This document shows, piece by piece, positions 47,899 to 60,612 of a DNA stretch of 64,000 bases. Every line of letters starts with the position of its first letter. Within the stretch, counting starts at the first letter, position 1. The translations under genes were made by a program, and so were the position numbers. The stretch spans positions 164,539 through 228,538 of the forward strand of contig JAVJTC010000009.1 in NCBI GenBank assembly GCA_040219085.1, given 5' to 3'. The notes below the pieces were generated by a model. It had not been told where the DNA came from. It did no database searches and was given only the letters and a program-made list of their open reading frames with translations. This stretch comes from Acidimicrobiales bacterium (GTDB taxonomy: Bacteria > Actinomycetota > Acidimicrobiia > Acidimicrobiales > JAVJTC01).

Positions 47899-47930
47899 GA
47901 CTTTCTCCCTGAATTCGTGAGCGTGGGTAC

Positions 47931-48641: not shown

Positions 48642-49456
48642 CAGTGGTCCCCTCCGTCGTCAGCGAGTAGGTCGACCATCTCGCTGTTGTCGAAACCGGG
48701 GCCGAGATAGGCCTCGATGACCGTCGGGTCCGACGTGACCTCCTCGGGCGTCCCCTGGGAGATGATCCGACCGAAGTGCAGCACAGAGATGATCGGGCAC
48801 AGCGTGGTGACGAGTTCGAGGTCGTGTTCGATGATCACGAGGCAGAGGTCGTCGTCGGTGACGGACTGCGTGATGCCCTTCAACAGGATCGTGACGTCAT
48901 CGGCACCGAGGCCGGCAGCCGGCTCATCCAGAAGGACCACGCTCGGCTTGCCCAGAAGCGCCCGGGCGACCTCGATGATCTTCTGGTTCCCGAGCGAGAG
49001 GTTCCCGGCGAGTTCGTGCGCGTCGTCGGCCAGTCCGAACCGTTCGAGAAGATCCATGCACTCGCGTCGGGCCTCGGTCTCCTCACGGCGCGCTGCGGGC
49101 AGCTTGATCAACTCTGCGAAGTGACCCCAGCGGAACCGATGGTGGTAGCCGAGGAGAGCATTCTCGATCACTGTGGCGTCGAGGATCAGCTTCGGTGCCT
49201 GGAAGGTCCGCCCGATGCCGCGGGCGACCCGGGCGGTCTGCGAGAGACCGTTGATCGACTTGCCTTCGAGGCGGACCTCACCCTGGCTCGGGTTCACGAA
49301 GCCGGAGATGACATTGAAGATGGTCGTCTTGCCTGCACCGTTCGGGCCGATGAGTCCGTTGAAGCCCGGGCCGAACTCGAGGTTCACGCCTTCGAGGACG
49401 CGGTTGCCGCCGAAGGCGACGTGCATGTCGGTGAGGGACAGCGATGAAGTGGTCAC
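48641..49456 (-). CDS. Branched-chain-amino-acid-type ABC transporter ATP-binding protein (LivG-like)
   Basis: GPNGAGKTT, LSLGNQKIIEVA and VLLDEPAAG motifs. Confidence 0.9.
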   Translation of the reverse strand: MTTSSLSLTDMHVAFGGNRVLEGVNLEFGPGFNGLIGPNGAGKTTIFNVISGFVNPSQGEVRLEGKSINGLSQTARVARGIGRTFQAPKLILDATVIENALLGYHHRFRWGHFAELIKLPAARREETEARRECMDLLERFGLADDAHELAGNLSLGNQKIIEVARALLGKPSVVLLDEPAAGLGADDVTILLKGITQSVTDDDLCLVIIEHDLELVTTLCPIISVLHFGRIISQGTPEEVTSDPTVIEAYLGPGFDNSEMVDLLADDGGDH

Positions 49457-50532
49457 AGCAATGCCCTCATTCGCTTGCGCAGATCCTGGATGTAGCGACT
49501 CTCACGGAGCCTGCTCGGCAGGGATGCGAAGCCCCCCGGGAGCATCAGAACCGCGAGCATCAGCGCGATGCCGAACATGAGAATGCGCAACTCCTCGACG
49601 TCCTGGAGCTTCTCGCGGATGTAGACGAAGAAGAAAGCGCCGATCAATGGTCCCCAAAGCCGGGAGACTCCGCCGATGATCAGGATCACCAGGAGGAACA
49701 CGAGGAGACGCGTCTTGAACGTGCCCGGGTTGATGAAGGTGGCGTTCTGCGCGAACAACGCGCCGCCCATCGAGGCGGTGAAGGCCGACAGCCCGAACGC
49801 GATCAGCTTGTAGCGCGTCGACGAAATGCCGATCGGCCCTGTCGCGATCTCGATGTCACGGACCGACTTGAGCGTCCGACCCAGCCGGCCGCGGCTCAGG
49901 ATCACGAAGCAGATGTAGGTGAACACCAGAGCCCCGTAGCTCATCCAGAAGACGGTCCGGGTGTTCGTCCCACCGCCGAGCCGGAACAGCTCGAGCGTCT
50001 TGCCCGTGCCGCCCCCGGTGTCCAGCCAGCCGGCCACCTCGTCGTCGAGCTCGATGAGCTTCACGATCAGCTCGCCGAACGCCAGGGTGGCGATGGCGAG
50101 GAAGAAGCCCTTCAGCCTTGCCGCCGGGAAGGCGAAGATGACACCGATGATCGCCGCGACGGCCGCGATGATGAAGAACGCCGCGAAGAACGGCACACCG
50201 TCCTCGAACAGCACCCCCGTGCCGTAGCCCCCGAGGGCGAACAGACCGGCGATGGCGAGGCCGAGTTGGCCCGAGTAGCCGACCAGGAGATTGAAGCCCA
50301 TGGCCGCGACCGTGTAGGCGAAGACGAAGGCGAGGTTTCCCTTGCCGAAGTCCGTGTCGTGGGGGAAGACCTGGGTCCAGTCGAGCAGCGGGTAGACGGC
50401 ACTGAGCCCCAGGAAGATGAACAGTGCAAGGGTCGCGCTGGGCTCGGCCCACCGCTTCAACCCGGACGGCCGCGGCTTGTAGAGCGGTCGTCCCCCGGCA
50501 CCGGACGATGAACTGGATTCGACGGCGGTCAC
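49453..50532 (-). CDS. Liv-type ABC permease (LivM-like)
   Basis: Polytopic protein. The GTG at 50532 is preceded by GGGAGG and lies 1 nt after the LivH-like stop. Confidence 0.85.
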   Translation of the reverse strand: MTAVESSSSSGAGGRPLYKPRPSGLKRWAEPSATLALFIFLGLSAVYPLLDWTQVFPHDTDFGKGNLAFVFAYTVAAMGFNLLVGYSGQLGLAIAGLFALGGYGTGVLFEDGVPFFAAFFIIAAVAAIIGVIFAFPAARLKGFFLAIATLAFGELIVKLIELDDEVAGWLDTGGGTGKTLELFRLGGGTNTRTVFWMSYGALVFTYICFVILSRGRLGRTLKSVRDIEIATGPIGISSTRYKLIAFGLSAFTASMGGALFAQNATFINPGTFKTRLLVFLLVILIIGGVSRLWGPLIGAFFFVYIREKLQDVEELRILMFGIALMLAVLMLPGGFASLPSRLRESRYIQDLRKRMRALL

Positions 50533-50533
50533 T

Positions 50534-51622
50534 TCACACCTCCCGAAGCTTGGCCTGGGTGGTGAACCCACCGGGCTTGATCAACAGGACGAGTACCACC
50601 GCCAGCAATGCGACCGTCGGCTGCACACTCGTGTCGATCTGAGCGCCGGCGACCGCTTCACCGACCCCGATGACGAGACCACCGATGAAGGTGCCTGGTA
50701 GCGACACGAAGCCGCCGAGCACCGCGGCGATGAAGCCCTTCAGGATCAGGCCCTCGGCTGAACCGAGCTGCAGGATCGTCGAGGAGGTGTGCAGGGTCAT
50801 CGCGATTCCTGCGATGAGACCACCGAGCGCCCACGCCGACACCGACACCCAGCCGGCGTTTATGCCGAGCATCCGCGCCGTGGTGCCGTCCTCGGCGATG
50901 GCACGCATGCGCGTACCCCACTTCGTGCGGAAGAACCCGCCGACGCCGAATGCGATCACGAGACCGGCGGCGATGGTGATGATCTGGTCCCAGCCCACCC
51001 GGGTGTCGCCGATGAGGACGTTGTCGCCGGACCAGGGTGCCCGGAAACCGCGGGGCGTGGCCCCCCAGATCAACTCGATCGCGGCCTGGAGGACGAAGTT
51101 GAGCCCGATGGTCAACAAGAGCAGGGGGAAGTGGTCGACCCGGGCCAGCGGCTTGACCCACTTGCGCAGGGCGAAGAAAACCCCAACCGTCGTTATCAGC
51201 CCGAACAGGATGGCTATCGCTATGTGGAAGCCCTCGTCAGCGACGGGGAACCAGTCGAAGAATGAGGGGAGACCCTCGTTCTCCACGAAGGTGATGCTCT
51301 GCCACAACATGAACGCCGCACCGGCGATCGCGAGCGGGACGTTGGACAGTCCGGTGAGCGGACGGATGAGCAGATACTGGATGAGGGCGCCGAACAACGC
51401 CCCGAAGATGATCCCGACGAGAACGGCCCAACCGAAGGGCCATCCCTCGCCGCCCTTGGACGGCTCCTCCCACAGGTACCAGGTGAGGTAGGCCGCGACG
51501 AGCCCCATCTCACCCATGGCGAAGTTGGGTACGTCCGTCGACTTCATGATCACGACGATCGCCAGCCCCAACAGGCTGTATCCACTACCCGCCTCGAGTC
51601 CCGCGACGATTTCCTGAAACAC
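50534..51622 (-). CDS. Liv-type ABC permease (LivH-like)
   Basis: Polytopic protein, with FAMGEMGLVAAY typical of LivH-like permeases. Confidence 0.85.
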   Translation of the reverse strand: MFQEIVAGLEAGSGYSLLGLAIVVIMKSTDVPNFAMGEMGLVAAYLTWYLWEEPSKGGEGWPFGWAVLVGIIFGALFGALIQYLLIRPLTGLSNVPLAIAGAAFMLWQSITFVENEGLPSFFDWFPVADEGFHIAIAILFGLITTVGVFFALRKWVKPLARVDHFPLLLLTIGLNFVLQAAIELIWGATPRGFRAPWSGDNVLIGDTRVGWDQIITIAAGLVIAFGVGGFFRTKWGTRMRAIAEDGTTARMLGINAGWVSVSAWALGGLIAGIAMTLHTSSTILQLGSAEGLILKGFIAAVLGGFVSLPGTFIGGLVIGVGEAVAGAQIDTSVQPTVALLAVVLVLLIKPGGFTTQAKLREV

Positions 51623-51651
51623 CGCTCCCCCTCCTGAGCCAGACGGTCATC

Positions 51652-51685
51652 GGTGGGGCGGGGGTCCGAGGACCCCCGCCCCACC
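51652..51685 (-). terminator. Perfect 16-bp GC-rich stem-loop between the SBP gene and the first permease gene (attenuator, partial terminator or mRNA stabiliser)
   Basis: GGTGGGGCGGGGGTCC-GA-GGACCCCCGCCCCACC, read directly. No U-tract follows on the transcribed (minus) strand. Confidence 0.6.
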
Positions 51686-51702
51686 GCTAGGAACTCAGGT
51701 GA

Positions 51703-53154
51703 TCAGCCCTCGTTGGGCGGCGTCGACGGTCGGATCTGAACCCACGACTCGGTCTCGGCGTCGTACTCGGCAATCGCTGCGCCCGAGGCGCACGAGTGAC
51801 CGCCGGGCAGCGGGCCGCAGGCGACGAGCGGGATGGCCCCGTACTCGAGCGGGTCGTCCTGGAGGGACTCGGCGGTGGCGTGGAAGTTCTCGTAGGTGTA
51901 GTTGCCGTCGAGACGATCAACGACCTCGAGGAACGCCCGGGTGTAGTAGTAGGTCTGCAGGCTGAAGTTGTTCTGCGCGGAGGCCGCACCCTCACCGTCG
52001 TAGGCCTCGGCGAGTGCACGCCAGGCGTTGACCGGCTCGGAATCGGTGGTGGGCAGCGACTGCTGCAGCGTGCCCAGGAAGCCGTCGGCCGCCTCGGGGG
52101 TGGCTGCGCCGACGGTGTTGGGACCGCCGGTGCCGCCGCCGCCGTTGTCGGCGCACATCAGACCCTCGTACCCGGCCTCGTTGAGCTGATCCAGCATCAG
52201 GGCGTTCTGGGCGTTGTCGACGCCGGTGATGATGCCGCCGGGCTCTGCGTCGAGCACCGACAGGACTGCCGGGGCGACGTTGGTCGAGAGGACCTCGACG
52301 GACTCCTGAGCGACGATCTCCATGCCGTTGATCGGCGCCTGGGTCTCGATCGCAGCAACGGCCTCTTCACCGAGCTCGTTGTCCTGCCCGATGGACGCCA
52401 CGCGGGTCACGCCCTGCTCGGCGAAGTAGTCGATGCAGACCCGGAGCTGTTCGGTACGGGTCGGACCGAGCAGGTAGACCTCCTGGATGTCGGAGTCAGC
52501 CGGAGAAACCGGGCCCCACATGATCACGCCGGAGCTCCGCAGGAACTCGTAGGTGCCGGGGATGGCCTGTGAACCGGCCGGGGAGGTCAGCGCCCAGACC
52601 TCTTCCTGGTCGATGAGGCGTCGCACGTTGGATACGAGCGTCTCCACCTCGAAACGGTCATCGAGGAACTCGAACTCGAACATGCAGCCGTCGATGCCGC
52701 CGTTGGCGTTCACCTCGGCGAGAGCGATCTCGATGCCGGCCCGGAGGCCCTCACCGGCGACCGCTGCGACACCCGTGAACGGCAGGGTGGTGCCGAGCTG
52801 GATCGTGCCGGCTTCCTTGTCGATGCCGCGCATGTCGCCTTCGGTGTTCTCACCGCAGGTCATCGGGGCGGAGCCGTCGTCACCACCGTCATCGGCGGCG
52901 GCACCGTCATCACCACCGTCATCGGCGGCGGCACCGTCATCACCACCATCGTCGGCGGCGGCACCGTCGTCGGCGGCGGCACCGTCATCACCGCCGTCAT
53001 CGGCGGCGGCACCGTCATCACCGCCGTCATCGGCGGCGGCACCGTCATCACCCGACGCGGTGTCGTCGTCGTCCCCGCACGCGGCCGCAATCATTGCGAA
53101 CGCAAGGAACAGAGCAAGTACGAGGCGCAACTTGCGCATGGATTTCCCCCTCAT
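51703..53154 (-). CDS. Liv-type (branched-chain amino acid/amide/organic acid) ABC substrate-binding lipoprotein with a repetitive acidic tether
   Basis: Signal peptide plus lipobox (IAAACGDDDD), (GDDGAAADDG)n repeats and a type I PBP fold (IQLGTTLPFTGVAAVAG). Confidence 0.85.
   Translation of the reverse strand: MRGKSMRKLRLVLALFLAFAMIAAACGDDDDTASGDDGAAADDGGDDGAAADDGGDDGAAADDGAAADDGGDDGAAADDGGDDGAAADDGGDDGSAPMTCGENTEGDMRGIDKEAGTIQLGTTLPFTGVAAVAGEGLRAGIEIALAEVNANGGIDGCMFEFEFLDDRFEVETLVSNVRRLIDQEEVWALTSPAGSQAIPGTYEFLRSSGVIMWGPVSPADSDIQEVYLLGPTRTEQLRVCIDYFAEQGVTRVASIGQDNELGEEAVAAIETQAPINGMEIVAQESVEVLSTNVAPAVLSVLDAEPGGIITGVDNAQNALMLDQLNEAGYEGLMCADNGGGGTGGPNTVGAATPEAADGFLGTLQQSLPTTDSEPVNAWRALAEAYDGEGAASAQNNFSLQTYYYTRAFLEVVDRLDGNYTYENFHATAESLQDDPLEYGAIPLVACGPLPGGHSCASGAAIAEYDAETESWVQIRPSTPPNEG
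52881..53048. repeat. 30-bp in-frame tandem repeat (about 5 copies plus one 18-bp partial copy) encoding GDDGAAADDG units
   Basis: The unit CACCACCGTCATCGGCGGCGGCACCGTCAT occurs at 52881, 52911, 52941 (variant), 52989 and 53019 (CACCGCC variant). Confidence 0.85.
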
Positions 53155-53306
53155 TGGTCGGTCGCGCGAACCCCCGGTCCGCGCATCGCGATCGCCGACC
53201 GTACCCCACCGACCCGGCGACCGCCAAACACCCGTTTGATTCCGCTCTTGACTTCGCCACCGCGATCCGCACCGACCTCGCGCGGCGCCTCGTCCGACGG
53301 ATCGGG

Positions 53307-55520
53307 TCAGATGGCGACGGTCGGACCGTAGAGCGCTTCGAGCCCCCGCAGCGCTGCTCGCTGGCGGGCCAGGACCTGCACGATCGCCGCCCTCACCGCG
53401 GCCCGATGTTCGGCGAAACTCCCGTCGACCTCGACGGTCCGCACCCGATCGTCGAGGGGCCCGGCCGGCACGCCGGCGCTGTCGAGCAGCCCGACGAGAC
53501 CCACGTCGTAGTCCTCCCCGAGGCGCTCCGCCGCGGACTCGAGCAACGGCCCGGCTATCCGCACCATCCGGTCGCTGCGGCGGTCCTCGAGGTGCCCGGC
53601 GACCTCCGCCCTCAGGAACTCGGCGACACCGCGCATGGTCTCGGCCGGCAGCGGTCGCGGCTCGAGACCCGTGATCTCAGGAGGCGTCACCGCCCCGGAC
53701 TCGACCTCGACAGCGGAGACGTCGAGACCCCAGGCGGCCCGCACGGCCCGGCACGTGCTCGCCGTGGTGAGCGCCTGGCCGAGTCCGGCGACGTTAGGGT
53801 TGGGGCTGCGGCCCTCGACGAACGCGCGGACACCGCCGAGGTTCATGGTGGAACGTGAGACGTGCGCGAGGACCTCGTACCAGGCCAGCAGGTCCCTGTC
53901 GACGGGAACGCCGGACTCCGCCTCGTAGGCGGCGACCACGCGCTCCGGGTCGAGAATCCCCAGACACGACCAGACAGCGCCACCGAGGTCGTCGAGGCGG
54001 TGACCCCACCGTGTCAGCTCCCAGTCCAGCAGTGCGGTGATCCGCCCGTCGGCGACGAGGAAGTTGTGCGGACCGGGATCACCCCACTGCAGCACGGGCT
54101 CGTCGGCGACGACCGGGACGTTGGTCTCCAACCAGCCGAGCAGCGCGGTGATGACGACGTTGGGGCCCGGTGGCTCCGTGGTGTAGCGCTCGATCGCCGC
54201 GGCGAGCTCGGCCCGGGTCGCCTCCGCGGTGTCCGCCGGGCGGGGCGGCCCTCCGTCCACATGGCCCGGCGCCGTGGCGTGCAGTCGGGCGAGCAGCCGC
54301 CCGAAGTCGTCGGCCACGGCGGCGTTGGTGTCGGGGTCGCCGAGACCGAGCGGCCTGCCGTCGAGACGGTCCATCACGAAGTACGCCCGTTCGAGTTCAC
54401 CGCCGGCCCCGTCGAACCAGTGCACGGTCGGCACCGGGAGGTCCGTGGCGGCGAGCGCCTTCAGGACCGCGAACTCCGCCGCCCGGTCGGTCCATTCGAG
54501 CGTTCCACCGACGGCGGTGCGCCGCAGCACGAACTCACGCCCGTCGGTGAGCGTGACGAACCACGTCTCCTGCCCGTTGCCGACGGGACCCCGCCGGGCA
54601 CCTTCGACGGTTGCATCGTCACCGAGGTTGGCGCGGAACACCGGCGTGAGGACCTCAGGGGTGAGCCCGCCGTCGCCGGGGGTCTTCGCGGCCGGGGCTG
54701 CAGGCCGCGGCTCCGCGGCGAGCAGGTGGTCGAGCGCCGCGGCCCGCCCGGCACGGACCTCGAGGTTGCGCATGCCGTGGGGATCGACGAGACGGTCGAG
54801 AACCTCGAGGACCTCATCGGGGGGATCGTCGAGGACCGGTGCGGTGGACGCATCCACGACCGCGAAGCCGGTTGCGGCGACGACCTCGTCGGGGTCCACA
54901 CCCGCCCGCAGCCCCGCGACGACGACAGTGCCGTCCTCGCGCCATTCCAGCTCGGCGAGTTCGGTGACGAGGGCGACGAGACCTTCGCCCGAGGTCGCCA
55001 CCGGGGCGCGGTCTCGCCGGGTGCGCCCGGCTGCGGTGACGTAATCGACGGCCTCCACCAGGAAACGCGTCGAGTGACCGATGCGGTAGCCCACGAGCCG
55101 CCCGACGAGCGACGCGGTGTCCGCCAGGGCGAGCGGGCCGGGAAGGACGATGTCGGCTGCGTCGGGGCGGACGATGCGCGAGGCGTTGATGTCGCCGCTG
55201 CGGTCGACCTGCGCGGGCGAGACGAACTGGAGGGTCACCCCGCCGCGTTGGATCAGGTCCAGGATCTCGGACTGGCCGAGAACGCCGTCGGCGAGGCGTG
55301 CCGCCACACCTCCGTCGGCGAGGCTCGTCGCGAGGTCATGGGTGTCGGGCCGCACGATCGTGCCGAACAGGACGGTCATGTCCGGGTGGAGCACCTCGCG
55401 GGCGACGAGTGCCGCCGCCGCAGCCACCGGGGTGCCGACCCCGACGACCACCACGTCGTCGGCACGGCAGCGTTGTGCAAGCGACCAGATCACCCTCTCG
55501 GCGGGACCGACGGTGCTCAT
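53307..55520 (-). CDS. Three-module fusion: a family-I CoA-transferase subunit-B-like domain, an APH/choline-kinase-fold phosphotransferase domain and a C-terminal helical module
   Basis: 737 aa from the ATG at 55520 (ATGA overlap with the A-subunit stop).
- aa 1-265 are GctB/IpdB-like (DDVVVVGVGTPVAAAAALVAREVL...).
- aa 270-290 form a Pro/Ala linker.
- aa 290-600 are APH-like (LQWGDPGPHNFLV, LLDWELTRWGHRLDDLG).
- aa 620-737 form a helical tail.
The 123-aa N-terminal extension in the track ORF is Arg-rich and overlaps the A-subunit gene. Confidence 0.8.
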   Translation of the reverse strand: MSTVGPAERVIWSLAQRCRADDVVVVGVGTPVAAAAALVAREVLHPDMTVLFGTIVRPDTHDLATSLADGGVAARLADGVLGQSEILDLIQRGGVTLQFVSPAQVDRSGDINASRIVRPDAADIVLPGPLALADTASLVGRLVGYRIGHSTRFLVEAVDYVTAAGRTRRDRAPVATSGEGLVALVTELAELEWREDGTVVVAGLRAGVDPDEVVAATGFAVVDASTAPVLDDPPDEVLEVLDRLVDPHGMRNLEVRAGRAAALDHLLAAEPRPAAPAAKTPGDGGLTPEVLTPVFRANLGDDATVEGARRGPVGNGQETWFVTLTDGREFVLRRTAVGGTLEWTDRAAEFAVLKALAATDLPVPTVHWFDGAGGELERAYFVMDRLDGRPLGLGDPDTNAAVADDFGRLLARLHATAPGHVDGGPPRPADTAEATRAELAAAIERYTTEPPGPNVVITALLGWLETNVPVVADEPVLQWGDPGPHNFLVADGRITALLDWELTRWGHRLDDLGGAVWSCLGILDPERVVAAYEAESGVPVDRDLLAWYEVLAHVSRSTMNLGGVRAFVEGRSPNPNVAGLGQALTTASTCRAVRAAWGLDVSAVEVESGAVTPPEITGLEPRPLPAETMRGVAEFLRAEVAGHLEDRRSDRMVRIAGPLLESAAERLGEDYDVGLVGLLDSAGVPAGPLDDRVRTVEVDGSFAEHRAAVRAAIVQVLARQRAALRGLEALYGPTVAI

Positions 55521-56329
55521 GCATCCACCCCTGCCACGAGTGCGGCGAGGCCCGTCGCACCGCCGCCCGGGTCGGCGAGGTATGCGCTGATCCCGGCCAG
55601 GTCGGCGCCGTAGCAGCCCGGCACCTCGGTGGGCCGGGCGCCGCCGGGGGCCAGGACCACCGCGTCGACGTCGTGGGCGAACAGCAGCGGCCGCCCACCG
55701 GCGCGCACGCGGGCCTCGGAGCTGTCGACGATCTCCTCGACGGAGACGACGACGGTTCCCGACGCCCGGGCGAGCACGGCATCGGCGTCGTGGAGGAAGT
55801 CGTCGTCCGCGCCGACCACCAGACCGTCGGCGGTCGCGGCCCGTGCGTGCAGGAGCGTCACGTCCGGGCGGATCGCGGGGACCGCCCATACGGCCTCACC
55901 TGTGTAGGGGCAGGCGACGGTCTCGATCCCGAGGTCGGCGCTCACATCGGAGCCGGCCGCTCCCCGGCTGGGCCAGAACGGGAGGCCCGCTCCGGCGGCG
56001 CGCAGGCCGCCGACGATGTGGGTCTCGCTGACGAAGCGCGCCGTCACCGACCCGCCGGACACGGACGCCTGCCACGCGGGGGCGAAGCCGAGTTGTTCGA
56101 ATCCGACGTAGCCGGTGGTGGCCGAGCGCACGCAGCCCGCCGCGACGAGGTACTCGACGTCGACCGAGCCGAGGAACGCGACGAGGTCGAGGTCGCTGCG
56201 TCCTGCCTCCGCCAGCGCCGCGACGAGCGCCATGGGCTTGCGCCGCAGCAGGATCCCCCCGATACCGACGGACGCGCCGTCCGCCACCAGCGCCGCCGCC
56301 TCACCGAGTGGCACGACCTTGTCAGCCAT
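55517..56329 (-). CDS. Family-I CoA-transferase subunit-A-like protein (GctA/IpdA-like)
   Basis: MADKVVPLGEAAALVADGASVGIGGILLRRKPMALV... is a typical A-subunit N-terminus. 270 aa. Confidence 0.82.
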   Translation of the reverse strand: MADKVVPLGEAAALVADGASVGIGGILLRRKPMALVAALAEAGRSDLDLVAFLGSVDVEYLVAAGCVRSATTGYVGFEQLGFAPAWQASVSGGSVTARFVSETHIVGGLRAAGAGLPFWPSRGAAGSDVSADLGIETVACPYTGEAVWAVPAIRPDVTLLHARAATADGLVVGADDDFLHDADAVLARASGTVVVSVEEIVDSSEARVRAGGRPLLFAHDVDAVVLAPGGARPTEVPGCYGADLAGISAYLADPGGGATGLAALVAGVDA

Positions 56330-56753
56330 CGGCGTCGTCGGCCTTGCGCTTCGCGTACATGCCGGTCCGGAGCAGTTCGAGTTCCCGGTCGAGGTTCCCG
56401 CGGAGGAGGTCGTCGAGCATCGCCTTCACCTCGGGGCGGCGGGCGACATCGGTCCCCTGGAGCGCGGCGACGGCCACGAGATGCCCGCGGCGGGCGACCG
56501 CTATCTCCTCGCCGGACGCCGAGGGGTTCACCTCGTCCACGGCGGCGCCGGCGGCCGTCAGGACCTCACGGGCCGCGGCGATGTCGGCCAGCATCGGCTC
56601 GCGCCGCCACTCGACGCGCGTGGCCAGGTTGTTGACGAGCTCGACCGCGGCCATCACCTGGGACTTCGCGTAAGGGTCCGCCACGTGGGGGGCCACGTCC
56701 TCTGAGAGCGAACGGGCGATGCCCTCGAAGATCCGGTCGAGTGAGTTCTGCAC
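56322..56753 (-). CDS. Small helical protein of unknown function, similar to the C-terminal tail of the fusion protein
   Basis: 143 aa from the GTG at 56753, with GAGGA 5-9 nt upstream. GIARSLSEDVAPHVADPYAKSQVMAAVELVNNLA aligns by eye with GVAEFLRAEVAGHLEDRRSDRMVRIAGPLLESAA of the fusion tail. Confidence 0.65.
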   Translation of the reverse strand: MQNSLDRIFEGIARSLSEDVAPHVADPYAKSQVMAAVELVNNLATRVEWRREPMLADIAAAREVLTAAGAAVDEVNPSASGEEIAVARRGHLVAVAALQGTDVARRPEVKAMLDDLLRGNLDRELELLRTGMYAKRKADDADG

Positions 56754-56763
56754 GTTGGTCCTC

Positions 56764-57807
56764 TCAGATCCCGAGTTCTGTGGCCAGGGTGCGCAGCACA
56801 TAGTTCACCTGGTGCCCCATCGCGGCGAGGCGCAGGTCGTCGAACGTCCCGTCCTCGTAGACCGCGGCCGCCCGCAGGTGCGGTACGGCGGCCTGGATGT
56901 GGTTGGCGACGGTCCACCAGTCGAAGACCGCGGGGTCCACGGCGTGACCACTGTGCTTCTCGTAGGTGGCGAGGAAGTCATCCCGCTCGAGCATGTGCGA
57001 GAAGAGGGGCGACCGACCACGGAACAGCGGCAGCCCCGCGTAGGCGAGGTCGGCGACCGGGTCCCCGATGCGGCTGAGTTCCCAGTCGAACACGGCGACC
57101 ACCCGCCCGTCGCGCACCATGAAGTTCCCGATCCGGTAGTCGCCGTGGACGAGGGTGACCCGGCCCGACAGCGTCATCGACTCACGGCACCAGGCGAACG
57201 CCTCACGCACCAGCGGGACCTCCACGAGCGCGCTCGCCACGTACATCTCCTCGAGGTCGTCCAAGAAGGCGGCGGTCGCTGCCGCGCAGTCGACACCGAG
57301 GTCACCTCCGGGGGCGAGGAACCCGAGGTCGGCCGTGACGGGGTCGATCGCGTGGATGCGTGCGAGGACCGCAACGAAGTCCTCCCCGAGCGCGCGCCGC
57401 GCCTCGGGGGTGGGGAACCACTGCGGATCCTTCCCGCTCCACTGGGCGGGCACACCACCCTCGACGCGTTCCATCACGTAGAAGGGCATGCCCAGGATCG
57501 ACGTGTCCGTCTCGAGGGCGACGAGGCCGGCCATGGGCACGTCGGAATGGTCGACCACCGCCCGGTGCAGGCGGTACTGACCCTCGATGTCGTAGGGCGC
57601 GAGCAGACCGTCCTCCGGTTCTCGCCGCACCGCGTAGCCGGCTGTCCCGCCCGGCCAGGTGACCGTCATCGTCCACGTCTGCCACGACCACCCCTCGGCG
57701 TGGCGGCGCACGTCGGTGAGTTCCACCGCCTCGGTGGCAGCGCCGTGCAGCGACGCGAACCACTGCGTGAGCGCCGCGACGACCTCGTTGTTGGACGGGA
57801 CGCTCAC
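56764..57807 (-). CDS. APH/choline-kinase-fold phosphotransferase-family protein
   Basis: Canonical LVHGDYRIGNFMV (HxDxxxxN) and FDWELSRIGDPVADLAY motifs. The GTG start overlaps the upstream stop as GTGA. Confidence 0.88.
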   Translation of the reverse strand: MSVPSNNEVVAALTQWFASLHGAATEAVELTDVRRHAEGWSWQTWTMTVTWPGGTAGYAVRREPEDGLLAPYDIEGQYRLHRAVVDHSDVPMAGLVALETDTSILGMPFYVMERVEGGVPAQWSGKDPQWFPTPEARRALGEDFVAVLARIHAIDPVTADLGFLAPGGDLGVDCAAATAAFLDDLEEMYVASALVEVPLVREAFAWCRESMTLSGRVTLVHGDYRIGNFMVRDGRVVAVFDWELSRIGDPVADLAYAGLPLFRGRSPLFSHMLERDDFLATYEKHSGHAVDPAVFDWWTVANHIQAAVPHLRAAAVYEDGTFDDLRLAAMGHQVNYVLRTLATELGI

Positions 57808-58811
57808 TGGCGACCCATGCGGTCGGCGATACCGGGGCCCTCGGCGTACTTGCCCACCTCGAGCAGGCCGTTGCCCGACTCACCGGATGTCTCGTCGGTG
57901 AAGCGACAGAAGATCACGCAGTCCTGATACACCATCGTCCGGTCGCCGCTGCGGGCGTTGAGGTAGAGCTTCGCCAGCGCATCGGACAGGTGCGCGGTGA
58001 TGACGTGGGTGTCCCCGGCGACGGTCGTCACCGTGTAACGCGCGTCACGCTCGAAGGAACCGAAGGGCTCCTCGGGGTCGTCGAGCCAGTAGGGGTCGTC
58101 CGCGACCACGTGGGAGACGGGTTCGTTTCCGGCGGCGCTGGAGACAAACCCACCGAACTTCTCGTCGGGGTAGAAGGCCTCGAGCATCGCCGAGCCCTGG
58201 ACGTAGCGGTCGGCGAAGTTGGCGCACAGCCAGTGGTGCCTACGGAAGCAGAAGTCGTTGCGCCAGCCCCATGAGTGGTCGCGCATCCCCAGTCCGCTGA
58301 TGGCGATGGTCTCACCCGCCCGTGCCCCCTTGCGAGGCGTGATCGTGCCCTCGAAGGCGAGCGACTGCTCGTAGTGGTTGAAGGGGAAGACCGACAGGCC
58401 GATGGGTCCCAGCGGCGAGGTGCCCGGCGGCTTCGGGCCGTCGGCGAAGTCGAACGGCTCGAATCGCCCGGTGAAGACGAGGTCCATGGCACCGTCTTCG
58501 CCCTCGTGGCGCAGGCTGAAGCGCTTCTTCGGTTCGAGCACCTCGAAGGTGGTGGAACCGTCGGTGACGGGGCGCATGTCGTCGAGCGTCGCACCGATCG
58601 GGTGGCGGTTCACCGAGCGGATCCGCACATCGGGGCCCTGGGCCTTCGCCGTGAAGATGCCCTCGCCGTCGGCGGGTCGCATCGAGAAGTGGAACATCAC
58701 AGCGACGGACTCGTCGAGGTCCAGACCCTCGATCACCCAGTTCTCCTTCCAGATCAGGTCGGAGACCGCGGGGACGGAATGGGGGTAGTCGGCGTCGGGG
58801 GCTACGGGCAT
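57804..58811 (-). CDS. Uncharacterised protein, RDHSWG-motif family (paralog A)
   Basis: 335 aa with ordinary composition. The motif GLGMRDHSWGWRNDF is shared with WHACRDHSWGLRSTM in the divergent gene at 58898..60022. Confidence 0.75.
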   Translation of the reverse strand: MPVAPDADYPHSVPAVSDLIWKENWVIEGLDLDESVAVMFHFSMRPADGEGIFTAKAQGPDVRIRSVNRHPIGATLDDMRPVTDGSTTFEVLEPKKRFSLRHEGEDGAMDLVFTGRFEPFDFADGPKPPGTSPLGPIGLSVFPFNHYEQSLAFEGTITPRKGARAGETIAISGLGMRDHSWGWRNDFCFRRHHWLCANFADRYVQGSAMLEAFYPDEKFGGFVSSAAGNEPVSHVVADDPYWLDDPEEPFGSFERDARYTVTTVAGDTHVITAHLSDALAKLYLNARSGDRTMVYQDCVIFCRFTDETSGESGNGLLEVGKYAEGPGIADRMGRQ

Positions 58812-58897
58812 CTCGGGGACTCCTGGGTGGTCCGGTGGCCTCGGCGTTTGCTAGTACACAACCACACGTCCGCCGTTCCGGGCGAAAAGGAGATTCG

Positions 58898-60022
58898 GTG
58901 CGACTGAACCGCTGGGACGACCTCCCCTTCCACCAGACCGCCGAGCCTCTCGGCCAGCCTCAGACATCTGACACCCATTTCAACGACGGTTACTACTTCT
59001 CGTTCTACAAGCCCGGGATCCACGTCTTCATGGGTCTGCGGCTGTCGCCGAATACGAACGTGATGGACGGATACGCCGGAATGGTGATCCATTCCCGGGG
59101 CGAGCAGCGCAACCAGCGGCTCAGCCGGGCCCTGCGTCCCCACTTCGACGTCCTGGAGCTCGGGCCCCTGTCGGTGGAGATCCTCGAGCCGATGCGGCGC
59201 CAGCGGATCGCGCTGACCAACTCCGACATCGGGCTGAACTTCGACGTGACGATCGTCGCGACCGGCGACCCTCACGTGGAGCACGGCCACCGTCAGTACC
59301 GGTACGGCAAGCTCCTCAACGACCTCATCCGCTACACCCAGACCGGACGTGCGTCGGGGCTGATGCGCATCGACGACGACCAGATCCTCGTCGACGGGTG
59401 GCACGCCTGCCGCGATCACAGCTGGGGTCTGCGTTCGACGATGGGCCCGTACATCCCGATCAAGGGGATCCCGGGGACCGACGACGCCGAGCCCGATCGG
59501 CGCGCCATCCGCATCTGGATCCCATTCGAGGTGGACGGCATGTCCGGGTTCTTCCACACCCACGAGGACGCGGCCGGCAGGACCCTCGACTTCGAGGGGC
59601 GCATCGACCCGGCGAAGGGTGACCCGATCCTGCTCGCTTCCTGCGAGCACGAGTTCGAGTACCACCCGGGCACGCGTCGGCTCAAGGGGGGCACGTTCAC
59701 CCTGATCGACCACGACGGGAACCGGCGCACGTTCACGTTCACGTCGGTGTGCTATCCCGCTCACCCCCAGGGGTTCGGCTACACCCGGGGTTGGAACGAC
59801 GGCGGCGGGCTCGGCGTATGGCGGGGCGAGGCGTACACCGAGCACGAACGCTTCAAGGTGGACGACAACCTCCACAAGGCCGCTCCCGAGCGCATCCCTG
59901 CCGATCGTCGCCTCGGCGGCACCGAGTTCGTGTGCGACCTGACCGGCCCCGGCGGCGAGAAGGGCATGGCCCACGTCGAGCACATGATCTACGGCGCCTA
60001 TGAGCCTTCCGGCTTCGAGTGA
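58898..60022 (+). CDS. Uncharacterised protein, RDHSWG-motif family (paralog B)
   Basis: 374 aa from the GTG at 58898, preceded by AAAGGAG. It shares the RDHSWG motif and an overall beta-rich character with paralog A. Confidence 0.75.
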   Translation: MRLNRWDDLPFHQTAEPLGQPQTSDTHFNDGYYFSFYKPGIHVFMGLRLSPNTNVMDGYAGMVIHSRGEQRNQRLSRALRPHFDVLELGPLSVEILEPMRRQRIALTNSDIGLNFDVTIVATGDPHVEHGHRQYRYGKLLNDLIRYTQTGRASGLMRIDDDQILVDGWHACRDHSWGLRSTMGPYIPIKGIPGTDDAEPDRRAIRIWIPFEVDGMSGFFHTHEDAAGRTLDFEGRIDPAKGDPILLASCEHEFEYHPGTRRLKGGTFTLIDHDGNRRTFTFTSVCYPAHPQGFGYTRGWNDGGGLGVWRGEAYTEHERFKVDDNLHKAAPERIPADRRLGGTEFVCDLTGPGGEKGMAHVEHMIYGAYEPSGFE

Positions 60023-60609
60023 GGGATGACGACCCCATGAGCGGCGACGCACCGATCATCCGCTACGACCACCTCGGCCTGGCCGTGCGCTCCATCGAAA
60101 AGGGCCTGGTGCTGTACCGCGACACCTTCGGCGGCGTGTTCGTCGCCGGCGGCGACGACATGCGTCTCGGGATGCGCACGGTCCAGCTGAAGTTGCCCGG
60201 CGACCTCAAGATCGAACTCCTCCAGCCGCTCGACGAGAACTCGCACATGGCGGCGTTCCTCGAACGTCACGGTGAGGGGTTCCACCACGCCACGGTCTTC
60301 GTCCCCGACGTCGAAGTCATGATCGAGAAGCTGACCGCCAACGGTTTCGAACTCGTCGACACGGACCTCTCGGCGGCGACGTGGCGGGAGACGTTCGTGC
60401 GCCCGAAGTCCGGGTTCGGGTGCCTGCTCCAGATCGTCGATTCCACCCTCGACTGGCTCAGCCCGCACCCGACGTGCACCCTCGAAGGGGTCCTCGCCGG
60501 CCAGTGGCGGTGGTGGGGGAACAGGACGTGGCACATCGACGACCTTCCCGACGACTACGACGAAACCCGCTCTGACGTGTACATGCCCAAGACGCCTCGG
60601 ACGGGGTGA
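60019..60609 (+). CDS. VOC-family protein resembling methylmalonyl-CoA epimerase, with a C-terminal extension of about 60 aa
   Basis: YDHLGLAVRSIEKGLVLYRDTFGG ... KIELLQPLDENSHMAAFLERHGEGFHHATVFVPDVE matches the MCE pattern by eye. The start is GTG 60019 (GTGA overlap) or ATG 60037. Confidence 0.75.
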   Translation: MRDDDPMSGDAPIIRYDHLGLAVRSIEKGLVLYRDTFGGVFVAGGDDMRLGMRTVQLKLPGDLKIELLQPLDENSHMAAFLERHGEGFHHATVFVPDVEVMIEKLTANGFELVDTDLSAATWRETFVRPKSGFGCLLQIVDSTLDWLSPHPTCTLEGVLAGQWRWWGNRTWHIDDLPDDYDETRSDVYMPKTPRTG

Positions 60610-60612
60610 ACG

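What the first reader, a model, noticed from the sequence alone, without database searches (positions are those of the whole stretch)
53307..55520. Unusual triple fusion: CoA-transferase-B-like domain, APH kinase and helical tail, with non-canonical active-site residues in both enzymatic modules
**Seen in the sequence.** A single 737-aa reading frame starts at the ATG at 55520, coupled by ATGA to the A-subunit gene. It joins a subunit-B-like domain through a Pro/Ala linker (AEPRPAAPAAKTPGDGG) to an APH-fold domain and a helical tail.

Two active-site oddities are visible by eye:
- The kinase Brenner motif reads LQWGDPGPHNFLV, with Trp where the stand-alone paralog has His (LVHGDYRIGNFMV). The Trp codon is at 54084..54086.
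- At aa ~50-60, where family-I B subunits carry the catalytic Glu (SENG/ESG-type motif), the sequence is TVLFGTIVRPD with no Glu.

**Established knowledge.** The actinobacterial IpdAB enzyme of steroid ring degradation has a CoA-transferase fold, lacks the canonical beta-subunit Glu and acts as a ring-opening hydrolase on a CoA thioester.

**Inference.** The A/B pair here may be a lyase or hydrolase acting on a CoA ester rather than a transferase, and it is physically tethered to a kinase. I am not aware of a described fusion of this kind.
Basis: partly seen in the sequence, partly recalled or inferred. Interest (0 to 1): 0.7.

Follow-up and report, generated by a model that had tools for sequence, protein, structure and literature searches.

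The report
CoA-enzyme beta subunit fused to kinase
A real but rare gene fusion joins the beta subunit of a CoA-ester enzyme that has lost its transferase residue to an alcohol kinase of the 25-hydroxysteroid-kinase/ACAD11 type, linking two enzyme families that were not known to work together in one uncharacterised catabolic pathway.

Summary
The 737-aa frame (53307..55520, minus strand) is real. An identical protein occurs in a second assembly and an 89 % identical, syntenic one in a third. All modules are under purifying selection (dN/dS 0.09-0.22).

It is a two-part fusion, not three. The "helical tail" is the normal C-terminal subdomain of a ~455-aa kinase family.

Among 1.84 billion representative proteins, one other protein matched over its full length (P0002, the 89 % orthologue); the other 149 of the 150 listed hits cover either the B part or the kinase part. 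In at least three more distant lineages the same genes are separate and adjacent (A-B-kinase); two checked at DNA level have ATGA/GTGA overlaps. The fusion is therefore a merger of coupled neighbours.

The missing beta Glu is confirmed and holds across the family, as in IpdB and AibB. The alpha subunit keeps an invariant Glu at the position of the E-to-A substitution in PDB 6coj (which I recall as IpdA Glu105).

The Trp (WGD) is not an oddity. It is invariant in the family and present in Rv3168 and in the highly active 25-hydroxysteroid kinase.

The divergent neighbour gene matches 25-phosphosteroid lyase (E 4.5e-23).

Best reading: a non-transferase CoA-ester enzyme tethered to a kinase that activates a hydroxyl group for phosphate elimination. 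The substrate is unknown.

The parts
53307..55520 (-). Fusion gene, 737 aa plus stop: beta-subunit-like domain, linker, then APH-fold kinase with its C-terminal helical subdomain.
   Evidence: - Frame has no internal stop.
- An identical protein is in Logan SRR26147846.
- An 89 % identical, syntenic 737-aa orthologue is in SRR29340338.
- Overall dN/dS is 0.16.
54717..55520 (-). Beta-subunit-like domain (aa 1-268) of the glutaconate-CoA-transferase superfamily. It lacks the catalytic Glu.
   Evidence: - PDB phmmer: IpdB 4.5e-8, AibB 7e-8, GctB 1e-5.
- Family profile: IpdB 8e-32.
- About 50 stand-alone homologues of ~271 aa at ~50 % identity.
- dN/dS 0.22.
55362..55364 (-). Codon of Gly53, at the position of the catalytic Glu54 of GctB.
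   Evidence: - In the profile alignment GctB Glu54 is an insertion relative to the family.
- Gly53 aligns with IpdB(RHA1) Gly57 and AibB Cys56 (PMC5380842, PMC7756340).
54657..54716 (-). Pro/Ala-rich linker (aa 269-288) at the site of the former stop/start overlap.
   Evidence: - Only 35 % identical between orthologues that are 89 % identical overall.
- In the unfused relatives L005 and L011 this is where the B stop and the kinase start overlap, as GTGA or ATGA.
53721..54656 (-). APH-fold (protein-kinase-like) small-molecule kinase domain (aa 289-600).
   Evidence: - Pfam PF01636, 1e-32.
- Model pLDDT 93.
- Best structural match is 25-hydroxysteroid kinase 9fsg, E 2.8e-14.
- Family profile matches the ACAD11 kinase domain at 1.3e-29.
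- dN/dS 0.09.
54078..54086 (-). WGD of the Brenner motif: Trp479 (54084..54086), Gly480, catalytic Asp481 (54078..54080).
   Evidence: - Sequence read.
- W, D, N and the downstream D-W-E are invariant in 50 family members.
- The same WGD is present in Rv3168 and in 25-HSK.
53310..53720 (-). Variable loop plus five-helix C-terminal subdomain (aa 601-737), specific to the ~455-aa kinase family.
   Evidence: - Conserved in the family.
- Packs on the kinase (pTM 0.92).
- Modelled alone: pLDDT 87.
- No PDB fold match with E below 1.
- dN/dS 0.14.
55517..56329 (-). Alpha subunit (270 aa), translationally coupled to the fusion gene by ATGA. Invariant Glu102 is encoded at 56024..56026.
   Evidence: - Pfam CoA_trans 8.8e-18.
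- PDB: AibA 4.8e-30, IpdA 2.7e-26.
- Glu102 aligns with the Glu that is changed to Ala in 6coj_A.
- Glu102 is invariant in 108 homologues.
56322..56801 (-). Small conserved protein of unknown function (159 aa as listed; 143 aa in the gene calls of the orthologous loci).
   Evidence: - No Pfam hit.
- Found at the same place in L001, L008, L011, L091 and L092, and next to APH/Rv3169-type genes in L049 and L060.
56764..57807 (-). Second, stand-alone APH-fold kinase (347 aa, HGD motif).
   Evidence: - Pfam APH 7.6e-34.
- PDB: 3dxp 1e-19, 25-HSK 6e-18, Rv3168 3e-17, ACAD11 8.5e-17.
- 25 % identical to the fused kinase.
57804..58811 (-). Distant Rv3169/DUF7065-like protein (335 aa), first gene of the operon. 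Candidate second phospho-lyase.
   Evidence: - NCBIfam Rv3169_fam 4.5e-6 and Pfam DUF7065 0.0028, both below their curated cut-offs.
- Shares the RDHSWG motif with the 395-aa paralogue.
- No direct PDB sequence hit.
58835..60022 (+). Rv3169-family protein, homologous to 25-phosphosteroid lyase, transcribed divergently. The true start is probably about 63 nt further downstream.
   Evidence: - NCBIfam Rv3169_fam 7e-73.
- PDB 9fzn/9g2i/9g4c, 25-phosphosteroid lyase, E 4.5e-23.
- In L091 and L092 its homologue lies directly after the unfused kinase+tail gene.
60019..62217 (+). VOC/glyoxalase-fold protein (60019..60609) and acyl-CoA synthetase-type AMP-binding enzyme (60613..62217).
   Evidence: - Pfam.
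- Same order in L008.
44405..53154 (-). Rest of the minus-strand gene row:
- Liv-type ABC transporter: binding protein 51703..53154, permeases 49453..51622, ATPases 47931..49456.
- Class II aldolase: 47122..47898.
- SDR: 46418..47122.
- VOC protein: 45895..46428.
- FAD_binding_2 flavoprotein: 44405..46297.
   Evidence: - Pfam.
- Same order in L008.
- No terminator-like site between 52900 and 59100.

Best explanation
**What it is.** The gene encodes the beta subunit of an IpdAB/AibAB-like alpha/beta enzyme, fused by a flexible linker to an ATP-dependent alcohol kinase. The alpha/beta enzyme has the CoA-transferase fold but works on a bound acyl-CoA (hydration/ring opening, C-C cleavage or decarboxylation) rather than moving CoA between acids. 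The kinase belongs to the ACAD10/11-LvaA / 25-hydroxysteroid-kinase / Rv3168 clade and carries that family's own C-terminal helical subdomain.

**How it arose.** The fusion came from two adjacent, translationally coupled genes, B and the kinase, of a conserved A-B-kinase gene row.

**How it probably works (inferred).**
1. The fusion protein pairs with the alpha subunit encoded just upstream. This brings a kinase active site close to each CoA-ester active site.
2. The kinase phosphorylates a hydroxyl group of the pathway intermediate, most likely the acyl-CoA that the A/B enzyme binds or produces.
3. The phosphate is then eliminated to give an alkene. The Rv3169/25-phosphosteroid-lyase-like proteins encoded next door would do this, as 25-HSK/25-PSL and ACAD10/11 do.

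**Shown:**
- the fusion is real, rare and under purifying selection;
- where it came from;
- the beta subunit has no Glu;
- the alpha subunit has an invariant Glu;
- the kinase catalytic residues are intact;
- kinase and lyase homologues are neighbours.

**Inferred:** the substrate class, the order of the steps, and any channelling between the two active sites.
For: **The fusion is real and constrained**
- An identical protein is in a second assembly.
- An 89 % identical, syntenic orthologue is in a third.
- A contig from a seawater metagenome crosses the junction without gaps.
- dN/dS is 0.22 (B domain), 0.09 (kinase) and 0.14 (tail), while the linker is only 35 % identical.

**Origin**
- Unfused A-B-kinase rows are present in L005/L006, L011 and L090; ATGA or GTGA stop/start overlaps were verified at DNA level in L005 and L011.
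- L091 has the same gene set with the kinase placed next to the lyase gene instead.

**Not a transferase**
- The family of 50 B homologues has no Glu at or near the GctB Glu54 site.
- IpdB and AibB are among the top solved hits.
- PMC5380842 and PMC7756340 show that these two enzymes lack the Glu and are not transferases.
- Alpha Glu102 is invariant in 108 sequences and aligns with the E-to-A site of 6coj_A.

**The kinase is active and of the "activate for elimination" type**
- W479, D481, N486 and D499-W-E are invariant.
- The best fold match is 25-HSK with its substrate bound.
- The family profile's best hit is the ACAD11 kinase domain, 1.3e-29.
- 25-HSK has the same WGD motif and a specific activity of 19.5 umol/min/mg (PMC8449060).
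- The ACAD10/11 kinases need the CoA moiety of their substrate (PMC12440821).

**Lyase partner**
- The divergent neighbour matches 25-phosphosteroid lyase, E 4.5e-23.
- Its homologue directly follows the unfused kinase gene in L091 and L092.
Against: - No substrate is identified, and nothing here shows that the kinase acts on a CoA ester. 25-HSK, the best structural match, acts on a free steroid.
- In L092 the kinase and lyase genes occur with no A/B gene within 6 kb. In M. marseillense and Nakamurella the A/B pair occurs without the kinase. The link is therefore frequent but not obligatory.
- Fusion of two genes that overlap by 4 bp needs only a small indel and could be nearly neutral.
- In one relative (L008) the B domain carries a frameshift. 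This is either an assembly error or a sign that the domain can be lost.
- The catalytic role of IpdA Glu105 is recalled from the 2018 PNAS paper, which I could not read here. Only the existence of the E-to-A variant structure was seen.
- No model of the A + fusion complex was made.
Confidence: 0.55

Rival explanations
1. The fusion is an evolutionary accident with no mechanistic meaning. The kinase works only with the Rv3169/25-PSL-like lyase on a free hydrophobic alcohol (steroid- or terpenoid-like), as 25-HSK does. It merely happens to be translated on the same chain as the beta subunit because the two genes overlapped by 4 bp.
For: - The best structural match is 25-HSK bound to a free steroid.
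- The kinase+tail gene sits directly before the lyase gene in L091 and L092, and L092 has no A/B gene nearby.
- The ATGA/GTGA overlaps make fusion a one-step event.
- The fusion is confined to one narrow lineage.
Against: - A-B-kinase adjacency recurs in at least three divergent unfused lineages at 42-54 % identity.
- The fused form is kept under purifying selection in orthologues that differ at 11 % of residues.
- The family profile is as close or closer to the acyl-CoA kinase domain of ACAD11 than to 25-HSK.
- An acyl-CoA synthetase gene is in the cluster.
Confidence: 0.25
2. The CoA-transferase-fold A/B enzyme is itself the partner that uses the phosphorylated intermediate. The kinase phosphorylates a hydroxyl on the bound acyl-CoA, and the A/B active site (alpha Glu102 as base) performs phosphate elimination or a phosphate-driven decarboxylation. 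This would be analogous to the ACAD domain of ACAD10/11 or to mevalonate-diphosphate decarboxylase.
For: - Physical tethering of the kinase to the beta subunit.
- The ACAD10/11 precedent of a kinase fused to the domain that eliminates the phosphate (PMC12440821).
- AibAB shows that this fold can stabilise a thioester enolate for decarboxylation (PMC7756340).
- Alpha Glu102 is invariant.
Against: - Two dedicated lyase-like genes are already in the cluster.
- A/B pairs of the same family exist without any kinase, so they must have a kinase-independent reaction.
- There is no direct evidence.
Confidence: 0.12
3. The A/B pair is still a genuine CoA-transferase that uses another carboxylate as nucleophile, and the kinase is an unrelated passenger.
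For: - Clear homology to family I CoA-transferases, including the QxDxxGxxN motif.
- Other invariant acidic residues exist in the B family: D134, D246, E254.
Against: - The catalytic Glu position is Gly or Ala throughout the family.
- Both characterised relatives without that Glu lack transferase activity (PMC5380842, PMC7756340).
- E254 is also conserved in IpdB.
Confidence: 0.04
4. The fusion is an assembly or frameshift artefact, or the gene is a decaying pseudogene.
For: - The JGI relative L008 has a frameshift inside the B domain at aa 155-170.
- The window's own reads could not be mapped, because no indexed run holds more than 12 % of its 31-mers.
Against: - The same 737-aa frame is recovered in three independent assemblies (window).
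- The B-to-kinase junction is intact even in L008.
- dN/dS is well below 1 in every module.
- All family-invariant residues are kept.
Confidence: 0.02

Closest known systems
IpdAB (COCHEA-CoA hydrolase of steroid ring C/D degradation; Rv3551/Rv3552; PDB 6co6, 6co9, 6coj, 6con)
   Same: - Alpha/beta enzyme with the family I CoA-transferase fold.
- The beta subunit has Gly at the catalytic-Glu position. Gly53 here corresponds to Gly57 of RHA1 IpdB.
- The alpha subunit has a Glu at the site of the E-to-A variant.
- Best profile hit of the B family, 8e-32.
   Different: - The relationship is remote: only E 4.5e-8 in the single-sequence search.
- No steroid ring-degradation neighbours such as ipdC or ipdF were seen among the operon genes scanned.
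- IpdB is never fused to a kinase.
- The Glu that follows the Gly in IpdB (TDGEA) is Thr here.
AibA/AibB (3-methylglutaconyl-CoA decarboxylase of Myxococcus xanthus; PDB 5mzw-5n03)
   Same: - Same fold and no beta-subunit Glu.
- Acts on the bound acyl-CoA without transferring CoA.
- Best PDB hit of the alpha subunit, 4.8e-30.
   Different: - AibB has Cys56 where this protein has Gly53.
- AibA has Gly where this alpha subunit has the invariant Glu102.
- AibB has no kinase.
25-hydroxysteroid kinase / 25-phosphosteroid lyase of Sterolibacterium denitrificans (PDB 9fsg, 9ft5; 9fzn, 9g2i, 9g4c)
   Same: - The kinase is the best structural match (E 2.8e-14) and shares the WGD motif.
- A lyase homologue (E 4.5e-23) is encoded in the same cluster.
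- The logic of ATP-dependent dehydration is phosphorylation followed by phosphate elimination (PMC7411048, PMC8449060).
   Different: - About 20 % identity.
- 25-HSK is a 43-kDa monomer with no helical tail and no CoA-enzyme partner.
- Its gene is not next to the lyase gene (PMC8449060).
- Its substrate is a free steroid.
ACAD10/ACAD11 and LvaA/LvaC (4-hydroxyacyl-CoA kinase plus phosphate-eliminating ACAD)
   Same: - Best profile hit of the kinase family, 1.3e-29.
- The kinase is fused to, or encoded beside, the CoA-ester enzyme that handles the same intermediate.
- The substrate is a hydroxyacyl-CoA (PMC12440821, PMC11342911).
   Different: - The fusion partner here is a CoA-transferase-fold beta subunit placed N-terminal to the kinase, not an ACAD placed C-terminal.
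- HGD in ACAD11 versus WGD here.
- The tail does not resemble the ACAD N-terminal domain.
Mycobacterium tuberculosis Rv3168 (PDB 3ats, 3att) with its neighbour Rv3169
   Same: - APH fold with the WGD motif.
- The kinase + Rv3169-family gene pair is repeated here and in about 30 of 80 fetched loci.
   Different: - Rv3168 is about 350 aa with no tail and no A/B partner.
- It has been discussed as a possible aminoglycoside kinase. Its real substrate is unknown.

Membership tests
Family I CoA-transferase, beta subunit (GctB/AtoA/ScoB type) | Sequence/fold homology, including the QxDxxGxxN region. | tested here: met
   - GctB 1poi_B: 1.2e-5 for the single sequence, 1.3e-26 for the family profile.
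- SPAQVDRSGDIN is present.
Family I CoA-transferase, beta subunit (GctB/AtoA/ScoB type) | Catalytic Glu that forms the enzyme-CoA thioester (Glu54 in GctB). | tested here: not met
   - Gly53 is at that position.
- GctB Glu54 is an insertion relative to the family profile.
- There is no Glu in aa 42-84.
Family I CoA-transferase, beta subunit (GctB/AtoA/ScoB type) | Adjacent alpha-subunit gene. | tested here: met
   55517..56329 is PF01144 (8.8e-18) and overlaps the fusion gene by ATGA.
IpdAB-type CoA-ester hydrolase | Beta subunit lacks the catalytic Glu (Gly57 in RHA1 IpdB). | tested here: met
   Gly53 aligns with IpdB Gly57 (RHA1) and Gly51 (Mtb) (PMC5380842).
IpdAB-type CoA-ester hydrolase | Conserved alpha-subunit Glu (Glu105 in IpdA; role as base recalled from memory). 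| tested here: met
   - Glu102 aligns with the residue changed E-to-A in 6coj_A.
- It is invariant in 108 homologues.
IpdAB-type CoA-ester hydrolase | Steroid ring C/D (HIP) catabolic gene context (ipdC, ipdF, echA20, fadA6, KstR2). | tested here: not met
   None of these was seen among the genes scanned from 23.8 to 63.6 kb.
IpdAB-type CoA-ester hydrolase | Hydrolytic ring opening of a cyclic beta-oxo-enoyl-CoA. | not testable with these tools
   Needs an enzyme assay.
AibAB-type glutaconyl-CoA decarboxylase | Cys56 (beta) with Glu72 (beta) as proton relay. | tested here: not met
   - Gly53 aligns with Cys56.
- The Glu72 position was not examined.
- The Cys is not essential in AibAB (PMC7756340).
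APH / protein-kinase-like small-molecule kinase | Catalytic loop (H)xDxxxxN and the metal-binding Asp of the DxE/DFG-equivalent motif. | tested here: met
   - WGDPGPHN (D481, N486) and LLDWE (D499).
- All are invariant in 50 sequences.
- His is replaced by Trp across the whole clade.
APH / protein-kinase-like small-molecule kinase | Bilobal kinase fold. | tested here: met
   - Pfam PF01636, 1e-32.
- Model pLDDT 93.
- 233 PDB matches with E at or below 0.001; all 50 listed are small-molecule kinases of this fold (APH, Mph, 25-HSK, Rv3168 and the like).
25-HSK / 25-PSL kinase-lyase tandem (ATP-dependent dehydration) | Kinase of the WGD clade that resembles 25-HSK. | tested here: met
   - Foldseek rank 1, E 2.8e-14, TM 0.65 normalised to the target.
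- Profile match 3.5e-23.
25-HSK / 25-PSL kinase-lyase tandem (ATP-dependent dehydration) | Cognate phospho-lyase of the Rv3169/25-PSL family. | tested here: met
   - 58835..60022 matches 9fzn_A at 4.5e-23.
- Its homologue lies next to the kinase+tail gene in L091 and L092.
25-HSK / 25-PSL kinase-lyase tandem (ATP-dependent dehydration) | Phosphorylation of a tertiary alcohol followed by phosphate elimination to an alkene. | not testable with these tools
   Needs an enzyme assay.
ACAD10/11-LvaA type 4-hydroxyacyl-CoA kinase | Kinase-domain homology. | tested here: met
   ACAD11 8v3v_A: 1.3e-29 with the family profile and 6.6e-4 with the single sequence.
ACAD10/11-LvaA type 4-hydroxyacyl-CoA kinase | Partner ACAD (LvaC-like), fused or adjacent, that eliminates the phosphate. 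| tested here: not met
   - No Acyl-CoA_dh domain in the operon or its flanks.
- The tail has no ACAD-like fold.

The most novel reading that the evidence does not exclude
The fusion marks an undescribed type of ATP-driven acyl-CoA-processing complex. An APH-fold kinase phosphorylates a hydroxyl group (possibly tertiary) on an acyl-CoA held by a CoA-transferase-fold alpha/beta enzyme, and that non-transferase active site itself carries out the phosphate-driven elimination or decarboxylation. This would give the CoA-transferase fold a third catalytic use beyond IpdAB and AibAB, and would be a bacterial analogue of ACAD10/11 built from different parts.
Probability: 0.12. Interest if true: 0.8.

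Novelty: new variant of a known kind. Interest (0 to 1): 0.5.

Why it matters
- **A testable link between two enzyme families.** Rosetta-stone fusions are among the more reliable sequence-only pointers to a functional link. This one ties an IpdAB/AibAB-like CoA-ester enzyme to a kinase of the clade whose characterised members (25-HSK, ACAD10/11, LvaA) all activate a hydroxyl group for elimination. It places both beside homologues of the recently solved 25-phosphosteroid lyase.
- **A wider role for ATP-dependent dehydration.** This chemistry has so far been described only for anaerobic sterol side chains and for 4-hydroxy acids. The cluster suggests it is also used on CoA esters in uncultured high-G+C bacteria.
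- **A concrete hypothesis for Rv3168/Rv3169.** The kinase + Rv3169-family gene pair is widespread, and it includes M. tuberculosis Rv3168/Rv3169. A kinase-lyase dehydration tandem is a testable alternative to the suggested aminoglycoside-resistance role.
- **Limits.** The fusion itself is confined to one narrow lineage, and the substrate is unknown.

Tried and rejected
- **Pfam on the N-terminal 270 aa and on the tail alone:** no hit, even at E up to 10.
- **Read mapping of the window's own assembly:** no indexed run holds more than 12 % of its 31-mers. Contigs from four metagenomes gave only fragmentary coverage at 85-95 % identity. One contig spans the junction. Another skips 116 nt (54609 to 54726), and I could not interpret it.
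- **Combined alignment of the full-length protein with both homologue sets (A3):** MAFFT split the B-like sequences across the whole length. I therefore made no full-length model.
- **Idea that the tail is a remnant of the ACAD N-terminal helical domain:** this was prompted by a non-significant HMMER segment against ACAD11. Foldseek on the tail model found nothing with E below 1 and no ACAD, so I dropped it.
- **The 2018 PNAS paper on the IpdAB structure:** not held under either its DOI or its PMC id. A search for "Glu105" found nothing. The role of that residue is therefore marked as recalled from memory.
- **PDB sequence search with the 335-aa protein:** only chance hits.
- **Promoter and terminator scan of 52900..59100:** nothing found.
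- **Aminoglycoside-resistance reading of the kinase:** rejected. The NCBIfam APH(3') score is 39.8 against a cut-off of 205, and the gene context is catabolic.

Full report
**1. The observation**

The minus strand carries a stop-free frame of 737 codons from the ATG at 55520 to the stop at 53307..53309.
- The ATG overlaps the TGA of the upstream gene as ATGA, and a purine-rich stretch precedes it.
- The listed ORF runs on to 55889. That extension is an Arg/Pro-rich off-frame overlap of the A gene, and homologues align from the ATG at 55520 (96-98 % coverage).
- The Trp codon is at 54084..54086 within LQWGDPGPHNFLV.
- Residues 48-60 read MTVLFGTIVRPDT with no Glu.

The description is therefore accurate. 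Two of its readings need correction, as sections 3 and 5 show.

**2. Is the fusion real?**

The window's own reads could not be found: no indexed run holds more than 12 % of its words. Other evidence supports the frame.
- Exactly the same 737-aa protein is encoded on a 32-kb contig of an independent assembly, Logan SRR26147846.
- A protein that is 89 % identical and also 737 aa lies in the same gene order in SRR29340338.
- A third relative (JGI 3300041024, locus L008) keeps the junction between the beta domain and the kinase. It has a frameshift further upstream, at aa 155-170 of the beta domain.
- A seawater-metagenome contig crosses 54556..54781 without gaps.
- Between the window and L001, dN/dS is 0.22 for the beta domain, 0.09 for the kinase and 0.14 for the tail. 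The 20-residue linker is only 35 % identical.

The fused protein is therefore expressed and constrained in all its parts, and the linker behaves as a flexible tether.

**3. How common is it, and where did it come from?**

A full HMMER scan of 1.84 billion representative proteins found one protein that matches over residues 1-737. That protein is the 89 % orthologue. Each of the other 149 listed hits covers either residues 1-270 or residues 285-735.

The word-indexed search of 5.8 billion clusters agrees. It found about 55 proteins of roughly 455 aa that match the kinase plus tail.

So the tail is not a third fused module. It is part of a stand-alone kinase family: it is conserved across that family, and it packs against the kinase in a confident model (mean pLDDT 93, pTM 0.92 for 454 residues).

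The beta domain has about 50 stand-alone homologues of roughly 271 aa at about 50 % identity.

In the closest unfused relatives the genes are adjacent, in the order A, B, kinase+tail:
- L005/L006;
- L011, which keeps the whole seven-gene neighbourhood at 32-60 % identity;
- L090.

The B stop and the kinase start overlap as GTGA in L005 and as ATGA in L011. A small indel at such an overlap is enough to fuse the frames, and the variable linker lies exactly there.

L091 has the same gene set arranged differently. Its kinase+tail gene is followed directly by the Rv3169-like gene and a VOC gene, and is transcribed divergently from a row that ends in A and B. L092 has the kinase and lyase genes but no A/B within 6 kb. 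M. marseillense and Nakamurella have A-B pairs without the kinase. The association is therefore recurrent but not obligatory.

**4. The CoA-transferase-like pair**

Pfam does not recognise the beta domain, but PDB searches do.

| Query | IpdB (Mtb) | IpdB (RHA1) | GctB | AibB |
|---|---|---|---|---|
| Single sequence | 4.5e-8 | 7e-7 | 1e-5 | 7e-8 |
| Profile of 50 homologues | 8e-32 | 2e-29 | 1e-26 | 6e-25 |

In the profile alignment the catalytic Glu54 of GctB (VeSG) is an insertion relative to the family. Gly53 of the query aligns with three residues:
- Gly57 of RHA1 IpdB, which PMC5380842 names as the counterpart of GctB Glu54;
- Gly51 of Mtb IpdB;
- Cys56 of AibB, which PMC7756340 names as the counterpart of the Gct Glu.

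The homologues from fetched loci read LVAASV, LVASSV, IASSAV or LFGTAV at this site. None has an acidic residue. Both characterised relatives without the Glu are not transferases:
- IpdAB opens a ring hydrolytically and showed no CoA transfer (PMC5380842);
- AibAB decarboxylates 3-methylglutaconyl-CoA (PMC7756340).

The alpha subunit (55517..56329) matches AibA at 4.8e-30 and IpdA at 2.7e-26. PDB chain 6coj_A differs from 6co6_A by Glu to Ala in REMDEGM. I recall this residue as Glu105, the proposed catalytic base, but I could not read the paper. The query's Glu102 (FVSETH) aligns with it, whereas AibA has Gly there. Glu102 is invariant in 108 alpha-subunit homologues.

In its active-site pattern the pair resembles IpdAB more than AibAB. 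It is nonetheless a separate clade, and none of the genes scanned around it is of the steroid ring-degradation type.

**5. The kinase**

Trp479, Asp481, Asn486 and Asp499-Trp-Glu are invariant in 50 family members. The catalytic loop and the metal-binding Asp are therefore intact.

The Trp is a hallmark of the clade, not a lesion. The same WGD is present in M. tuberculosis Rv3168 (VLLWGDARVGN) and in PDB 9fsg (VICWGDARPGN). Foldseek identifies 9fsg as 25-hydroxysteroid kinase with its substrate bound, and it is the best structural match of the model (E 2.8e-14). Next come 3dxp and Rv3168. 25-HSK is a very active enzyme, at 19.5 umol/min/mg (PMC8449060).

With the family profile, the best PDB hit is the kinase domain of ACAD11 (1.3e-29), ahead of 25-HSK (3.5e-23) and Rv3168 (2.2e-22). 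ACAD10/11 and LvaA phosphorylate the 4-hydroxyl of acyl-CoAs and require the CoA moiety (PMC12440821, PMC11342911).

The tail (aa about 623-737) folds as five helices (pLDDT 87). It has no PDB match with E below 1, and the whole-model matches stop at about 343 aligned columns.

**6. The neighbourhood**

On the minus strand the genes overlap or abut:

| Coordinates | Gene product |
|---|---|
| 57804..58811 | 335-aa distant Rv3169/DUF7065-like protein |
| 56764..57807 | second APH kinase, 347 aa, HGD motif |
| 56322..56801 | conserved small protein of unknown function |
| 55517..56329 | alpha subunit |
| 53307..55520 | the fusion |
| 47931..53154 | Liv-type ABC transporter |
| 47122..47898 | class II aldolase |
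| 46418..47122 | SDR |
| 45895..46428 | VOC protein |
| 44405..46297 | flavoprotein |

No terminator-like site was found between 52900 and 59100.

Transcribed divergently are an Rv3169-family protein (58835..60022, NCBIfam 7e-73), a VOC protein, an acyl-CoA synthetase and an amino-acid permease.

The Rv3169-family protein matches PDB 9fzn/9g2i/9g4c, named 25-phosphosteroid lyase, at E 4.5e-23. In Sterolibacterium, 25-HSK and this lyase together dehydrate a tertiary alcohol at the expense of ATP: phosphorylation, then phosphate elimination to an alkene (PMC7411048, PMC8449060, PMC11061730).

The cluster thus holds two kinases and two lyase-like proteins. The kinase+tail gene lies directly before the lyase homologue in L091 and L092, so these two are probably cognate.

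Among 80 loci fetched with the WGD kinase profile, about 30 have an Rv3169-family gene next to the kinase. These loci come from Caulobacter, Rhodoferax, Binatia and many actinomycetes, and the arrangement matches Rv3168-Rv3169 in M. tuberculosis.

**7. Most likely mechanism**

Every characterised kinase near this one makes a phosphate ester that a partner then eliminates. The partners are 25-PSL, the ACAD domain of ACAD10/11, and LvaC. The stand-alone kinase in this operon also gave a weak hit to the class V lanthipeptide kinase LxmK.

I therefore commit to the following reading.
- The fusion protein is the beta subunit of a non-transferase CoA-ester enzyme.
- It carries a kinase that phosphorylates a hydroxyl group of the same pathway's intermediate, most probably the acyl-CoA that A/B binds or makes.
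- The phosphate is then eliminated by the Rv3169-like lyase.

The acyl-CoA synthetase and the transporter fit a catabolic route for an imported acid.

What is shown is the anatomy, the conservation, the origin of the fusion and the homologies. The substrate class, the order of the steps and any channelling are inferred.

The main rival is that the fusion is a near-neutral accident and that the kinase acts on a free alcohol. A bolder variant is that the A/B site itself uses the phosphate ester.

**8. Comparison with what is known, and novelty**

Each module belongs to a known superfamily, but it is not a member of the characterised families in the strict sense.
- It fails the catalytic-Glu test for CoA-transferases.
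- It lacks the gene context of IpdAB.
- It lacks the Cys of AibB.
- It lacks the ACAD partner of ACAD10/11.
- It is only about 20 % identical to 25-HSK.

The beta-subunit::kinase architecture was not found outside this lineage, and the papers I read do not describe it. I rate it a new variant of known kinds.

It is of moderate interest, mainly as a Rosetta-stone clue. The broader by-product is that APH + Rv3169-family gene pairs, including Rv3168/Rv3169, look like kinase-lyase dehydration tandems.

Noticed in passing
window 58835..60022 (+); loci L014, L023-L025, L029, L032, L034, L036, L039, L041, L043, L044, L046, L047, L050, L052-L054, L059, L064, L066, L067, L070, L073, L080, L085, L089: WGD-type APH kinases of about 340 aa sit next to an Rv3169-family gene (homologous to 25-phosphosteroid lyase) in about 30 of 80 fetched loci from Proteobacteria, Binatia and actinomycetes. 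This mirrors Rv3168-Rv3169 in M. tuberculosis. It suggests that Rv3168 is the kinase of a kinase-lyase dehydration tandem rather than an aminoglycoside-resistance enzyme.
   Followed up: partly
window 56322..56801 (-): A small protein (143-159 aa) with no Pfam family is conserved between the stand-alone kinase and the alpha-subunit gene. It also lies next to APH/Rv3169-type genes in Binataceae and deltaproteobacterial MAGs (L049, L060). Its function is unknown.
   Followed up: partly
L008 8521..9281 (JGI 3300041024): In this relative, 89 % identical, the beta domain is split by a frameshift at aa 155-170, and the gene call starts at aa 174. This is either an assembly indel or real decay of the beta domain.
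   Followed up: partly
window 51703..53154 (-), aa ~30-95 of the product: The Liv-type substrate-binding protein starts with a lipoprotein-like signal followed by a long Asp/Gly/Ala repeat: many copies of GDDGAAADDGGDD.
   Followed up: no
window 26338..35150 (-): A second catabolic gene group lies 20 kb away: family III CoA-transferase, SDR, VOC, two acyl-CoA synthetases, a cyclase and a SnoaL_4 protein. It resembles the genes flanking the unfused kinase+tail gene in L002 (SnoaL_4, AMP-binding, kinase, cyclase, DUF7064).
   Followed up: no
proteins P0058 (544 aa), P0060 (598 aa), P0202 (579 aa): The same beta-like domain also occurs at the C-terminal end of proteins of about 550-600 aa that carry PF01144. 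These are probably alpha::beta single-chain fusions. The beta gene of this family has therefore fused with either neighbour in different lineages.
   Followed up: no
window 54609..54726: One seawater-metagenome contig (run X1) joins 54609 to 54726, skipping 116 nt around the linker. This is not a multiple of three. It may come from a relative with a different junction, and it remains unexplained.
   Followed up: no
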